A stretch of 64,000 nt of DNA, taken from assembly GCF_003334385.1 (NCBI RefSeq), contig NZ_QOWN01000008.1; one strand, given 5' to 3'. This stretch comes from Escherichia coli (GTDB taxonomy: Bacteria > Pseudomonadota > Gammaproteobacteria > Enterobacterales > Enterobacteriaceae). Position numbers and translations under genes: made by a program. The notes under the pieces were generated by a model. It was not told the origin of the DNA, ran no database searches, and saw only the letters and a list, made by a program, of their open reading frames with translations. Shown piece after piece: positions 55,363-58,990 of this stretch. Within the stretch, counting starts at the first letter, position 1. Each line of letters starts with the position of its first letter.

Positions 55363-55932
55363 TTATGCGCCCTGCCAGCGGGCAAAGAGATCTTCAGGAA
55401 GGGTTATCGCAAACTGGTCAAGAACACGATTAACCGTCTGATTTATCACATCATCAAGGGATTGCGGGCGATGATAAAACGCCGGAACGGGAGGCATAAT
55501 CACCGCACCGATTTCTGCCGCCTGAGTCATTAAACGCAGATGGCCTAAGTGCAATGGTGTTTCACGCACGCAGAGCACCAACGGGCGACGCTCTTTCAGC
55601 ACCACATCTGCCGCACGGGTCAGTAAGCCATCAGTATAGCTATGGACAATGCCGGAAAGGGTTTTGATTGAACAGGGTAAAATCACCATCCCCAGCGTCT
55701 GGAAAGAACCGGAAGAGATGCTGGCGGCAATATCGCGCGCATCGTGCGTGACATCGGCTAATGCCTGCACTTCGCGCAGAGAAAAATCCGTTTCGAGGGA
55801 TAAGGTCTGGCGCGCTGCCTGGCTCATCACCAGATGCGTTTCGATATCTGTGACATCGCGCAGAACCTGTAATAAGCGCACGCCATAAATCGCGCCGCTG
55901 GCACCGCTGATGCCTACAATGAGTCGTTTCAT
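55363..55932 (-). CDS. ubiX: Flavin prenyltransferase UbiX (189 aa)
   Basis: MKRLIVGISGASGAIYGVRLLQVLRD... Confidence 0.95.
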   Translation of the reverse strand: MKRLIVGISGASGAIYGVRLLQVLRDVTDIETHLVMSQAARQTLSLETDFSLREVQALADVTHDARDIAASISSGSFQTLGMVILPCSIKTLSGIVHSYTDGLLTRAADVVLKERRPLVLCVRETPLHLGHLRLMTQAAEIGAVIMPPVPAFYHRPQSLDDVINQTVNRVLDQFAITLPEDLFARWQGA

Positions 55933-56026
55933 AAATAGTTGCCCTGTCAGACTTGCAGGCAGACTTTGCAGGATTTCGGCGGGAGTTGCAAGTCAGGGTG
56001 CCAGACCGGCACCCTCAGCGAAGGCA

Positions 56027-57544
56027 TCATCCTTCGTTATGCATTTCGAGATTTTCCACTTCGTTCTGACGTTGCACTGCTTTGGCGTCATCATTACGTA
56101 ACGTATCGAGGAAATCGAGGTAGCCCTGATCAACATCTTTGGTGACGTAGACGCCGTTGAACACCGAGCATTCAAACTGCTGGATATCCGGATTTTCAGC
56201 GCGAACGGCGTCGATCAGATCGTTCAGATCCTGGAAAATCAACCCGTCAGCACCGATGATCTGGCGAATTTCATCAACTTCGCGACCGTGAGCGATCAGT
56301 TCCGTGGCGCTCGGCATATCAATACCATAAACGTTCGGGAAGCGAATTTCCGGTGCCGCAGAAGCGAGGTACACTTTCTTCGCTCCGGCTTCGCGTGCCA
56401 TCTCGATAATCTGCTCAGAAGTGGTGCCACGGACGATGGAGTCGTCGACCAGCAGGACGTTTTTATCGCGGAACTCGGCGCGGTTGGCATTCAGTTTACG
56501 GCGCACGGACTTACGACGCAGCTGCTGGCCCGGCATGATAAAGGTGCGGCCAACATAGCGGTTTTTAACGAAGCCCTGGCGGTACGGTTTGCCCAGAATA
56601 CGAGCAATTTCCAGCGCGATATCACACGAGGTTTCTGGGATCGGGATCACCACGTCGATATCCAGATCTTCCCATTCGCGGGCAATTTTCTCGCCCAGTT
56701 TCGTGCCCATATTCACACGCGCGCTGTAAACGGAAATTTTGTCGATAAACGAGTCCGGGCGGGCAAAGTATACATACTCAAACAGGCACGGATTGCTGAC
56801 CGGATTGTCAGCACATTGACGGGTAAACAACTGCCCTTCTTCAGTGATGTAAATCGCTTCGCCCGGCGCGACGTCACGCAGGAAATCAAAGCCCAGCGTA
56901 TCGAGCGCTACGCTTTCGGAAGCGACCATATATTCTGTACGGTTCTCGTCAATATCACGTTTTCCCAGTACCAGCGGACGAATCCCGTTTGGATCGCGGA
57001 AAGCAACCATACCGTGGCCGATAATCATCGCCACACAGGCATACGCGCCGCGGATTAAGCGGTTTGTGGCAGCAATGGCAGCGAAAATATTGTCGGCTTC
57101 CAGCGGGTAGTGGCGGAAGTTGTCCAGCTCGCTGGCGAAGATATTAAGCAGAATTTCCGAGTCGGAAGTGGTGTTGATGTGGCGGCGTTTTTCTTCAAAC
57201 AGTTTTTTACGCAACTCGTGAGCGTTGGTCAGATTGCCGTTGTGGGCAAGCGTAATGCCATACGGGGAGTTAACGTAAAACGGCTGCGCTTCAGAGGCGC
57301 TGGAGCTGCCAGCCGTGGGGTAACGCACATGACCAATGCCCATATTGCCCTGCAAACGCTGCATATGGCGAGCTTCAAATACATCGCTCACCAGCCCGTT
57401 CGCTTTACGCAAACGGAAGCAGTTATTGGCATCTATGGTGATGATGCCGGCGGCATCCTGACCGCGATGCTGAAGCACCGTTAAGGCATCATAAATCGAC
57501 TGGTTAACCGGCATAACACCGGCGATACCGACAATACCGCACAT
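56027..57544 (-). CDS. purF: Amidophosphoribosyltransferase (505 aa)
   Basis: N-terminal MCGIVGIAG (Ntn Cys) plus PRTase motif. Confidence 0.97.
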
Positions 57545-57580
57545 ACGTCTTTTTCCTCGTTAAGCCACATCTCAGAGCAC

Positions 57581-58069
57581 TTACGCTCTGGGCAAGAAAC
57601 TTGACGAGCTTTGCAGATAATCAAAAAACCATCTGATGATAAAACTGAATTGCGGGATCAGCTGTGATTTGCTCCAGTCTTCGCTTTTCGACACCCCGGT
57701 AAAGGAGTCGAGAAAGAAGAGAATGGCAGCAACAATCAACACACCGCGCAACGCACCGAAACAGACGCCCAGCACCCGATCGGTGCCTGACAACCCCGTT
57801 TTCTCCACCAACTGGCCTATCACGAAGTTCACGATAGCACCAACGATCAGGGTAGCGATAAACAGTACCGCGATGGCAATCCCATTTCGAACCAGTTCGT
57901 CTTCAAAGCCCGTAAACCAGACTGACAGGTAAGTGTAGTAATGACTGGCAACAAAGAAAGCACAACCCCATGTCACCAGCGATAACGCTTCACGAACAAA
58001 GCCGCGGATCAGGCTAACCAGAGAGGAAAAAGCAATCACCGCGATTATGGCGTAATCAATCCAGACCAT
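57581..58069 (-). CDS. cvpA: Colicin V production protein CvpA (162 aa)
   Basis: MVWIDYAIIAVIAFSSLVSLIRGFVREALSLVTWG...; membrane protein upstream of purF. Confidence 0.93.
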   Translation of the reverse strand: MVWIDYAIIAVIAFSSLVSLIRGFVREALSLVTWGCAFFVASHYYTYLSVWFTGFEDELVRNGIAIAVLFIATLIVGAIVNFVIGQLVEKTGLSGTDRVLGVCFGALRGVLIVAAILFFLDSFTGVSKSEDWSKSQLIPQFSFIIRWFFDYLQSSSSFLPRA

Positions 58070-58125
58070 ATGTGTCCCACGATTTTACGCCCTGTCATCC
58101 TGTTCGGGGCGCATTCTAACAGAAA

Positions 58126-58143
58126 AAGAAAACGTTTGCGTAG
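58126..58143 (-). promoter_or_regulatory. PurR operator (PUR box) in the cvpA-purF-ubiX promoter
   Basis: Minus-strand reading ACGCAAACGTTTTCTT matches the PurR box consensus; about 60 bp upstream of the cvpA ATG. Confidence 0.65.
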
Positions 58144-58199
58144 GGATTTCCTTCCCGCGCATCAATAAAAATGGCGCTGAAAAAATATTCAACGCCATC

Positions 58200-58320
58200 G
58201 ACTTTTTATGCCTTTGCGGCATCGGGCAATGCGTGTCGGATGCGGCGTAAACGCCTTATCCGACCTACGGTTCTACCCCTGCGTAGGCCTGATAAGACGC
58301 GCCAGCGTCGCATCAGGCAA
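58200..58320. repeat. BIME: two inverted REP elements between dedD and cvpA
   Basis: gtgtcggatgcggcgtaaacgccttatccgacctacgg (58233-58270) and inverted copy ctgcgtaggcctgataagacgcgccagcgtcgcatcaggca (58280-58319). Confidence 0.7.
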
Positions 58321-58327
58321 GACCGTA

Positions 58328-58990
58328 TTAATTCGGCGTATAGCCCATTACCACGCCACTTAAGCCAGAAAGTTGCTTCAACTCACCCAGCGAACCTTTC
58401 AGCTTATCTTTCGAGGCATCCGGCCCAACCAGAATACGGGTAATTTTACCCTGCACTGGCGTGGATGGCGACGTATAAACCCGATAACCGGCACCGCGCA
58501 GCTTACCGACAATCTCATTCACTTTATCGGCATTTTTCAGCGCACCCAGTTGCACAACATAGGCTTTACCCGTCGGTGCAGCTTTTTCTTCCACGACCGG
58601 CTTCGGTTCTGGCTTCGGCGCAGGTGGTGCTTCAACCTTTGGTTTAGGCGGCTCCACCGGTTTCGGCTTCGGTGGGGCGACCGGTGCAGGTTCCGGTTCA
58701 AACTCGGTGTTATTGGCTGCAATAGTGGCCGGATCGAGCGACGGTGCTGCGGCATCACCTGCCCGCACCTCTTCCGCTGCGCCTTCCGGCGGCTGCGTCG
58801 GTAACGCCTGGGTGGCGGCTGGCATCATATCAGGCTCATCACGATCGCCCGCTTTCGGCACCAGCGGGATAGCCGCGAACTCATCCTGATAATGTTTTTT
58901 CTGCCCGTCCAGCAGCCCTGGAAGTACAATCACCCCCAGCGCCACCAGCACGATCGTGCCCACTAACCGATTCTGAAACTTACTTGCCAC
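58328..58990 (-). CDS. dedD: Cell-division protein DedD, SPOR domain (220 aa; probable GTG start)
   Basis: (V/M)ASKFQNRLVGTIVLVALGVIVLPGLLDG... with Pro/Lys/Glu-rich linker and C-terminal SPOR domain; overlaps the folC 3' end by 11 nt. Confidence 0.88.
   Translation of the reverse strand: MASKFQNRLVGTIVLVALGVIVLPGLLDGQKKHYQDEFAAIPLVPKAGDRDEPDMMPAATQALPTQPPEGAAEEVRAGDAAAPSLDPATIAANNTEFEPEPAPVAPPKPKPVEPPKPKVEAPPAPKPEPKPVVEEKAAPTGKAYVVQLGALKNADKVNEIVGKLRGAGYRVYTSPSTPVQGKITRILVGPDASKDKLKGSLGELKQLSGLSGVVMGYTPN

What the first reader, a model, noticed from the sequence alone, without database searches (positions are those of the whole stretch)
58126..58143. Consensus PurR box upstream of cvpA
The minus-strand sequence ACGCAAACGTTTTCTT matches the 16-bp PurR operator consensus. 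Its location about 60 bp upstream of cvpA fits purine-repressor control of the cvpA-purF-ubiX operon and supports the operon assignment.
Basis: partly seen in the sequence, partly recalled or inferred. Interest (0 to 1): 0.25.

Follow-up and report, generated by a model that had tools for sequence, protein, structure and literature searches.

The report
The known PurR operator of cvpA-purF

Summary
Confirmed, and already known. The window here is 100% identical to E. coli K-12 MG1655. The minus-strand 16-mer ACGCAAACGTTTTCTT lies at 58141..58126, 56 nt before the cvpA ATG.

- **Match to consensus:** it fits the palindromic PurR consensus at 14 of 16 positions. It is the only hit with two or fewer mismatches in 64 kb (0.02 expected).
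- **Matrix score:** a matrix built from 27 other ChIP-verified PurR sites scores it 22 bits, 9 bits above the next site in the window.
- **Published binding:** the PurR ChIP-chip table (Cho 2011) lists this same 16-mer at the same genome position for cvpA-purF-ubiX, bound only when adenine is added.
- **Published start site:** TSS mapping (Kim 2012) puts +1 at window 58105. The box therefore covers -36 to -21, over the weak -35 of an extended -10 promoter (TGtTAGAAT).
- **Conservation:** the box sits 53-58 nt upstream of cvpA in all 48 Enterobacterales loci examined. It is absent in the Shewanella, Colwellia and Idiomarina groups, whose orders are not among those reported to have PurR.

"Consensus" slightly overstates the match, since one half-site has two deviations.

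One side observation is unexplained: an inverted repeat running from the -10 hexamer to about +20 keeps its symmetry while its sequence changes between lineages.

The parts
58126..58141 (-). PurR operator (PUR box, the classical 'purF operator'). It reads ACGCAAACGTTTTCTT on the cvpA strand, has its central CpG at 58134/58133, and spans -36..-21 relative to the cvpA TSS.
   Evidence: Sequence. Only hit with two or fewer mismatches in the window, 0.02 expected. Leave-one-out matrix score 22.0 bits. Same 16-mer and position in the PurR ChIP-chip table. Present in 48 of 48 Enterobacterales loci.
58113..58121 (-). Extended -10 element TGtTAGAAT. TG is at 58121-58120 and the hexamer TAGAAT at 58118-58113, which is -13..-8.
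   Evidence: Read from the sequence. It lies 7 nt upstream of the mapped TSS. CTGTTAGAAT is nearly invariant from E. coli to Proteus. A plain -35/-10 consensus scan finds no promoter here because the -35 is poor.
58105..58105 (-). Transcription start site of cvpA-purF-ubiX (a G, giving a 36-nt leader).
   Evidence: Kim et al. 2012, supplementary file 2: TSS at NC_000913.2 2428821, minus strand, 240 reads, with the promoter string ending ...TAGAATGCGCCCCG. Converted using cvpA coordinates.
57581..58069 (-). cvpA coding sequence (162 aa), first gene of the operon.
   Evidence: ORF. RefSeq annotation.
56027..57544 (-). purF coding sequence (505 aa, amidophosphoribosyltransferase), starting 36 nt after the cvpA stop.
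   Evidence: No terminator in the gap. Adjacency conserved in 62 of 62 loci.
55363..55932 (-). ubiX coding sequence (189 aa, flavin prenyltransferase), starting 94 nt after the purF stop.
   Evidence: Follows purF in 19 of 24 Enterobacterales loci and 0 of 38 others. All three genes behave alike in in vitro run-off transcription.
58170..58199 (-). Intrinsic terminator of the upstream gene dedD. It marks the upstream boundary of the cvpA control region and ends 28 nt before the box.
   Evidence: 12-pair stem followed by a T run. The hairpin arms are conserved across Enterobacteriaceae.

Best explanation
This is the PurR operator of the cvpA-purF-ubiX promoter in E. coli.

When hypoxanthine or guanine is plentiful, the PurR dimer with its corepressor binds the 16-bp imperfect palindrome at -36..-21. 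That position covers the weak -35 region and most of the spacer of an extended -10 sigma-70 promoter. RNA polymerase is therefore kept off, and transcription of cvpA, purF (the first committed enzyme of de novo purine synthesis) and ubiX falls.

**Shown (by published data matched to these bases):**
- the sequence match;
- adenine-dependent PurR occupancy in vivo at this locus;
- the transcription start site;
- repression of purF, and co-regulation of cvpA-purF with the other pur genes.

**Inferred:** that repression works by steric exclusion of RNA polymerase, and that the TG extension compensates for the poor -35.
For: - **Identity of the locus:** 100% identical to MG1655 across the control region, with genes annotated cvpA, purF and ubiX.
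- **Statistics:** unique hit with two or fewer mismatches, 0.02 expected. Leave-one-out matrix score of 22.0 bits, top of the window by 9 bits.
- **PurR binding:** Cho 2011 Table 1 gives binding region 2,428,603-2,428,965 and motif AAGAAAACGTTTGCGT at 2,428,842-2,428,857 for cvpA-purF-ubiX. The log2 enrichment is 1.77 with adenine and there is no peak without it. purF is listed among the genes repressed by PurR-hypoxanthine.
- **Co-regulation:** cvpA-purF belongs to the Pur-1 iModulon together with the other pur genes.
- **Start site:** TSS at window 58105 with 240 reads.
- **Typical placement:** PurR sites generally lie between the -35 and -10 elements or overlap the promoter.
- **Phylogenetic footprint:** TACGCAAACGTTTTC[T/G]TTTTCTGTTAGAATGC is nearly invariant in 37 distinct Enterobacterales upstream sequences while the flanks diverge.
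- **Position across species:** the box is 53-58 nt from the ATG in 48 of 48 loci. The Morganellaceae variant ACGCAAACGTTTTCGT is closer to consensus (25.2 bits).
- **Absence elsewhere:** the box is missing upstream of cvpA in the Shewanella, Colwellia, Idiomarina and Rheinheimera groups. PurR orthologues are reported only in Enterobacteriales, Pasteurellales and Vibrionales.
- **Within E. coli:** the 71-bp promoter piece is single-copy in 5426 of 5426 genomes and identical in 4337. The three sampled variants differ only upstream of the box.
Against: Nothing found here contradicts it. Four limits apply.

- The ChIP-chip resolution is a few hundred bp, so on its own it shows occupancy of the region, not of these 16 bases.
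- The footprinting and operator-mutation papers (Rolfes & Zalkin 1988; Makaroff & Zalkin 1985) are not in the held library and are cited only through reference lists.
- Conservation of the block cannot separate operator function from core-promoter function, because the two overlap.
- The steric-occlusion step is inferred from position alone.
Confidence: 0.97

Rival explanations
1. The block is conserved only because it is the core promoter (-35, spacer and extended -10). Its resemblance to a PurR box would then have no regulatory consequence.
For: The box coincides with the -35 and spacer positions, and the conserved block extends well past the box through the -10. Conservation alone therefore does not prove operator function.
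Against: - The -35 candidates inside the box match TTGACA at only 2-3 of 6 positions, so promoter function would not demand this particular sequence.
- The sequence scores as high as proven PurR sites on a matrix that excludes it.
- PurR occupies the region in vivo in an adenine-dependent way.
- purF is repressed by PurR.
- The one lineage-specific change, in Morganellaceae, moves towards the PurR consensus.
Confidence: 0.01
2. The site is used mainly by another LacI/GalR-family regulator with a similar palindrome, for example RbsR, the closest paralogue of PurR, rather than by PurR.
For: Ravcheev et al. 2014 state that PurR arose from an RbsR duplication and kept the ancestral motif. The two motifs are therefore related.
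Against: - The ChIP used tagged PurR, and the signal depended on adenine.
- The site scores at the level of core pur-gene operators.
- The downstream gene purF is the paradigm PurR target.
- No evidence for RbsR at this promoter was found in the papers searched.
Confidence: 0.01
3. The match is a chance occurrence.
For: At three or fewer mismatches, 0.49 matches per window are expected.
Against: - The actual match has two mismatches, for which 0.02 are expected.
- It sits in front of a purine-synthesis operon.
- It is conserved at a fixed distance from cvpA in 48 of 48 Enterobacterales loci.
- It is occupied by PurR in vivo.
Confidence: 0.005

Closest known systems
E. coli purF operator (PUR box of cvpA-purF-ubiX), defined by Makaroff & Zalkin 1985 and Rolfes & Zalkin 1988 and used in the PurR-corepressor-DNA crystal structures of Schumacher et al.
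   Same: It is the same DNA. The sequence and the genome position are those listed for cvpA-purF-ubiX in the PurR ChIP-chip table, in a window 100% identical to MG1655.
   Different: Nothing differs. As far as I recall (my own knowledge, not checked here), the crystallised oligonucleotide was a symmetrised version of this operator. The natural site has two deviations in one half-site.
Other operators of the E. coli pur regulon (purT, purC, purMN, purL, purHD, purEK)
   Same: The same 16-bp motif with a central CG, similar matrix scores (19-25 bits), and a position overlapping the promoter.
   Different: Here the regulated pur gene is the second gene of the operon, behind cvpA. PurR occupancy was detected only with added adenine, whereas purC, purMN, purT and purEK also showed a peak without it.
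Operators of other LacI/GalR-family repressors (RbsR, Cra/FruR, LacI)
   Same: [quoted passage not shown]
   Different: [quoted passage not shown] The half-site sequence here fits the PurR matrix.

Membership tests
PurR operator (PUR box) of the enterobacterial pur regulon | A 16-bp imperfect palindrome matching ACGCAAACGTTTGCGT, or the ChIP motif ACGNAAACGTTTGCNT | tested here: met
   It matches the perfect palindrome at 14 of 16 positions and the specified ChIP-motif positions at 13 of 14. The leave-one-out matrix gives 22.0 bits, within the range of proven sites.
PurR operator (PUR box) of the enterobacterial pur regulon | A central CpG step at positions 8-9, where the hinge helices insert | tested here: met
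   C at 58134 and G at 58133 on the minus strand. They are invariant in all 48 Enterobacterales boxes. The structural role of the CpG is from my own knowledge of Schumacher et al. 1994.
PurR operator (PUR box) of the enterobacterial pur regulon | A location in the control region of a nucleotide-metabolism transcription unit, usually overlapping the promoter | tested here: met
   The box lies at -36..-21 relative to the mapped TSS at 58105, upstream of cvpA-purF-ubiX. The general rule is stated.
PurR operator (PUR box) of the enterobacterial pur regulon | Occupied by PurR in a corepressor-dependent manner | tested here: met
   This is a literature look-up, not a new experiment. The ChIP-chip peak at 2,428,603-2,428,965 covers the site, with log2 enrichment of 1.77 with adenine and no peak without it. 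In vitro footprinting (Rolfes & Zalkin 1988) is cited but could not be read.
PurR operator (PUR box) of the enterobacterial pur regulon | Downstream genes repressed by PurR and purines | tested here: met
   Also a literature look-up. purF is listed among the IMP-synthesis genes repressed by PurR-hypoxanthine, and cvpA-purF is in the Pur-1 iModulon. The gene-level supplementary tables of Cho 2011 are not held.
PurR operator (PUR box) of the enterobacterial pur regulon | Conserved in lineages that have PurR and absent in those that lack it | tested here: met
   The box is present in 48 of 48 Enterobacterales loci and absent upstream of cvpA in the Alteromonadales-type genera. PurR orthologues are reported only in Enterobacteriales, Pasteurellales and Vibrionales. 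Two caveats: Aeromonas carries a box-like site although its order is not in that list, and no Vibrionales or Pasteurellales loci were sampled.
Extended -10 sigma-70 promoter | A TG one base upstream of a -10 hexamer close to TATAAT, with the TSS 6-8 nt downstream and a dispensable or weak -35 | tested here: met
   TGtTAGAAT lies at 58121-58113 and the TSS 7 nt further on. The -35 candidates match at 2-3 of 6 positions and the consensus scan finds no promoter. The functional contribution of the TG was not tested.

The most novel reading that the evidence does not exclude
The most novel reading not excluded concerns the inverted repeat that starts at the end of the -10 hexamer and ends near +20 (window about 58114..58086). 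It keeps its symmetry while its arm sequences change between Enterobacteriaceae, Providencia, Proteus and Arsenophonus. It could be a second, undescribed control element of the cvpA-purF promoter. That would mean either an operator for another dimeric factor, or a structure formed in RNA that reads through from dedD.
Probability: 0.12. Interest if true: 0.35.

Novelty: already known. Interest (0 to 1): 0.04.

Why it matters
It matters only as a positive control for the scan. The site links purine availability to expression of PurF, the first committed step of de novo purine synthesis. That link has been textbook knowledge since the 1980s and was confirmed genome-wide in 2011.

Tried and rejected
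- **Consensus promoter scan:** the -35/-10 scan around the site found no promoter. This is explained by the poor -35 and the extended -10, not by the absence of a promoter, since the TSS is mapped.
- **Other PurR sites:** the matrix scan found no other credible PurR site in the 64 kb. The next scores of 13 bits or less are below the mean maximum of random sequence, 15.5 bits.
- **Rfam:** the search over 57500-58400 found only sub-threshold naRNA4 matches on the REP elements and nothing at the operator or leader.
- **Papers not held:** the supplementary tables of Cho 2011 are not held. The id I recalled for the Thomason 2015 dRNA-seq paper returned no held paper. The primary 1985 and 1988 JBC papers are likewise not in the library.
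- **Stem counting:** MAFFT alignment A3 of the region from the -10 to the ATG does not put the Morganellaceae stems in register. I therefore did not run the count of structure pairs on it. I used per-sequence folding and a native-versus-cross-lineage duplex test instead.
- **Sampling limit:** Vibrionales, Pasteurellales, Yersiniaceae and Erwiniaceae other than one Pantoea are therefore missing.

Full report
**1. What is in the sequence**

Read on the minus strand, window 58141..58126 is ACGCAAACGTTTTCTT.

Downstream on the same strand lie three ORFs:
- 162 aa, 58069..57581;
- 505 aa, 57544..56027;
- 189 aa, 55932..55363.

A megablast of 57400-58500 finds the stretch in all 5426 complete E. coli genomes, with the features cvpA, dedD and purF under it. 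The MG1655 record annotates hisJ, argT, ubiX, purF, cvpA, dedD, folC and accD in this order. The 341 bases around the site are 100% identical to MG1655. So the window is E. coli chromosome, and the site is in the dedD-cvpA intergenic region, 56 nt before the cvpA ATG.

**2. Is the match more than chance?**

Against the perfect palindrome ACGCAAACGTTTGCGT the site has two mismatches, both in the promoter-proximal half.

- It is the only site in the 64 kb with two or fewer mismatches (0.02 expected).
- It is also the only one with three or fewer, but there 0.49 are expected.
- I built a weight matrix from the 27 other motif instances in the PurR ChIP-chip table of Cho et al. 2011, leaving the cvpA site out.
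- On that matrix the site scores 22.0 bits, in the middle of the range of proven pur-gene operators.
- The next site in the window scores 12.95 bits, and 2 of 200 Markov-simulated windows reach 22 bits.

"Consensus" is a slight overstatement for a 14/16 match.

**3. Published experimental evidence tied to these exact bases**

*PurR binding.* Cho et al. 2011 (PMC3159470) Table 1 lists, for the transcription unit cvpA-purF-ubiX:
- a PurR-binding region at 2,428,603-2,428,965;
- the motif AAGAAAACGTTTGCGT at 2,428,842-2,428,857;
- log2 enrichment of 1.77 with adenine and no peak without it.

In the same coordinate version cvpA is 2,428,297-2,428,785. The window ATG at 58069 therefore corresponds to 2,428,785, and the box at 58126-58141 corresponds to 2,428,842-2,428,857, the listed position. 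The paper counts this among the previously characterised PurR sites and lists purF among the genes repressed by PurR-hypoxanthine. A later paper places cvpA-purF in the Pur-1 iModulon with the other pur genes.

*Transcription start.* Kim et al. 2012 (PMC3415461, supplementary file 2) map the cvpA TSS at 2,428,821 on the minus strand. It has 240 reads, a 36-nt leader, and the promoter string GGAAGGAAATCCCTACGCAAACGTTTTCTTTTTCTGTTAGAATGCGCCCCG. That places +1 at window 58105.

**4. Anatomy of the promoter**

Relative to +1 at 58105:
- The box covers -36..-21.
- TAGAAT (58118-58113) is the -10 hexamer, at -13..-8.
- It is preceded by TG (58121-58120) with one base between them, giving an extended -10.
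- The possible -35 hexamers (ACGCAA with a 17-nt spacer, TACGCA with 18) match TTGACA at only 2-3 positions. That is why the consensus scan reports no promoter.

PurR therefore sits where sigma region 4 would contact the DNA. Reviews state that PurR sites generally overlap the promoter or lie between -35 and -10. Repression by exclusion of RNA polymerase is the natural inference, but I did not see it demonstrated for this promoter in the papers I could read.

Upstream, the dedD intrinsic terminator (58199..58170) ends 28 nt before the box and closes the control region.

**5. The operon**

- The cvpA-purF gap is 36 nt and the purF-ubiX gap is 94 nt. Neither contains a terminator-like site, and the terminator-like hits inside purF are at the level expected from shuffles.
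- There is no second PurR-like site near purF. PurR control of purF must therefore come through the cvpA promoter.
- Internal 5' ends assigned to purF (3-7 reads each) and to ubiX (8 and 10 reads) are 25-80 times weaker than the cvpA TSS.
- In in vitro run-off transcription the three genes behave alike.
- purF follows cvpA on the same strand in 62 of 62 loci with enough downstream sequence (median gap 33-41 nt). ubiX follows purF in 19 of 24 Enterobacterales and 0 of 38 others.

**6. Comparative evidence**

I anchored a search of one genome per species on the coding sequence for the CvpA N-terminus, so the search was not conditioned on the operator. Of 120 loci, 115 encode a CvpA homologue.

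- **Enterobacterales:** scanning 300 nt upstream with the leave-one-out matrix gave a high-scoring box 53-58 nt before the ATG in all 48 loci with enough upstream sequence.
  - Forty-one have the E. coli sequence, all Enterobacteriaceae apart from one Pantoea.
  - One MAG has A7 changed to T, a base also seen in proven sites.
  - Five of the six Morganellaceae and Arsenophonus loci have ACGCAAACGTTTTCGT, which is one step closer to consensus (25.2 bits). Arsenophonus nasoniae has ACGCAAACGTTTTTGT (18.6 bits).
- **Aeromonas:** the eight species carry GCGCAATCGTTTTTGT (one has CCGC...) 36 nt before the ATG.
- **Other groups:** Shewanella, Colwellia, Idiomarina, Pseudidiomarina, Rheinheimera, Psychrosphaera, Thalassotalea and Zobellella have nothing above background. 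This fits the report that PurR orthologues exist only in Enterobacteriales, Pasteurellales and Vibrionales.
- **Footprint:** an alignment of 37 distinct Enterobacterales upstream regions shows a nearly invariant block TACGCAAACGTTTTC[T/G]TTTTCTGTTAGAATGC within diverging flanks.
- **Within E. coli:** the 71-bp promoter piece is single-copy in all 5426 genomes and identical in 4337. Three sampled variants differ only at window 58160 and 58156, upstream of the box.

**7. Rivals**

- Chance is excluded by sections 2, 3 and 6.
- "Promoter only, not operator" is contradicted by adenine-dependent PurR occupancy, by PurR-dependent repression, and by the poor fit of the box to a -35.
- Use by a paralogous LacI-family factor such as RbsR has no support beyond motif relatedness.

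**8. Comparison with the known, and novelty**

This is not a new member of a family. It is the type specimen: the purF operator of Makaroff & Zalkin 1985 and Rolfes & Zalkin 1988. Those papers are cited but I could not read them. The site is also the DNA in the title of the Schumacher et al. 1997 PurR-guanine structure paper. All testable defining features are met (see the membership table).

Novelty is "already known" and interest is very low. The value of the finding is as a check that the first-stage reader recognises real regulatory sites.

**9. A side observation, not explained**

Immediately after the -10 hexamer there is an inverted repeat. In E. coli it reads T GCGCCC cgaacaggatgaca GGGCGT A, at about 58114..58086.

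- In 14 lineages the minimum-free-energy fold of the 32 nt starting inside the -10 is always a hairpin anchored at the same place.
- The arm sequences nevertheless differ:
  - Pantoea: CGCCCC / GGGGCG
  - Providencia: GCACT-C / GAGTGC
  - Proteus: ATGCT-CCG / CGG[G/A]GCAT
  - Arsenophonus: GCGTTCG / TGAATGT and ACCTTCG / TGAAGGT
- The z-scores against shuffles are individually weak, from -0.3 to -3.8.
- Pairing each 5' arm with its own 3' region gives a mean of -9.6 kcal/mol. Pairing it with the 3' region of another lineage gives -4.8 kcal/mol. The native partner is best in 6 of 9 cases, but there are only about four independent lineages.
- The 5' arm is the discriminator, upstream of the mapped TSS. 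The hairpin therefore cannot form in mRNA started at this promoter.

It could be a palindromic site for another factor, a structure in read-through RNA from dedD, or a by-product of a GC-rich discriminator. I leave it as a lead.

Noticed in passing
window 58086-58114 (minus strand), and the same position in L096, L037, L051, L056, L092, L104 and L042: An inverted repeat runs from the last base of the -10 hexamer, through the discriminator, to about +20. It keeps its symmetry while its arm sequences change between Enterobacteriaceae, Providencia, Proteus and Arsenophonus, with G.U wobbles on the cvpA sense strand. The 5' arm lies upstream of the mapped TSS, so it is not a structure of the cvpAp mRNA. 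It remains unexplained.
   Followed up: partly
window 58113-58121: The cvpA promoter is of the extended -10 type (TGtTAGAAT) with a very poor -35 inside the PurR box. The TG and the hexamer are nearly invariant across Enterobacterales. A standard -35/-10 scan misses this promoter.
   Followed up: partly
window 58209-58265 and 58286-58354: Two REP-type palindromic elements lie between dedD and its terminator side of the intergenic region (inverted repeats at 58235-58264 and 58287-58318). They give sub-threshold Rfam matches to naRNA4 (38 bits against a gathering score of 59.5). They also explain why the 1.1-kb query hit a median of 15 places per E. coli genome.
   Followed up: partly
window 58170-58199: The dedD intrinsic terminator (12-pair stem plus T run) ends only 28 nt upstream of the PurR box. 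Its arms (GGCGTTGA.../...TCAGCGCC) are conserved across Enterobacteriaceae although the sequence further upstream is not.
   Followed up: partly
L014, L022, L024, L025, L030, L039, L071 (Aeromonas), 36 nt upstream of cvpA: Aeromonas species carry a PurR-like box, GCGCAATCGTTTTTGT (16.4 bits), at a different distance from cvpA than in Enterobacterales. Aeromonadales is not among the three orders reported to have PurR orthologues (PMC4052901). I did not check whether Aeromonas has PurR or uses an RbsR-like factor here.
   Followed up: no
L096, L037, L092, L104, L056 (Morganellaceae and Arsenophonus): The operator variant ACGCAAACGTTTTCGT (T15 changed to G) is one step closer to the perfect palindrome than the E. 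coli site (25.2 against 21.8 bits). This suggests possibly tighter PurR binding in these genera.
   Followed up: no
window 58070-58327, + strand (MG1655 U00096.2 2428784-2429041): An in vitro run-off microarray study (PMC3141248) lists the probe for this intergenic region as 'transcribed in opposite direction' to cvpA, with a sigma70/sigmaS ratio of 1.71. This hints at an antisense or divergent transcript. No promoter-like site was found on the + strand by the consensus scan.
   Followed up: no
window 57712-57930 (inside cvpA) and about 55956-56040 (end of purF): Kim et al. 2012 list seven weak 5' ends inside cvpA assigned to purF (3-7 reads each) and two before ubiX (8 and 10 reads). The cvpA TSS has 240 reads. 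They may be minor internal promoters or processing sites.
   Followed up: partly
loci L002-L121 downstream of cvpA: cvpA-purF adjacency is universal in the sampled gammaproteobacteria (62 of 62). ubiX follows purF only in Enterobacterales (19 of 24, against 0 of 38 elsewhere). ubiX therefore looks like a later addition to the operon.
   Followed up: partly
window 58328-59008: The longest dedD ORF starts at a TTG at 59008 (226 aa). RefSeq annotates a 220-aa DedD starting six codons downstream (protein begins VASKFQ...) and overlapping the end of folC.
   Followed up: no
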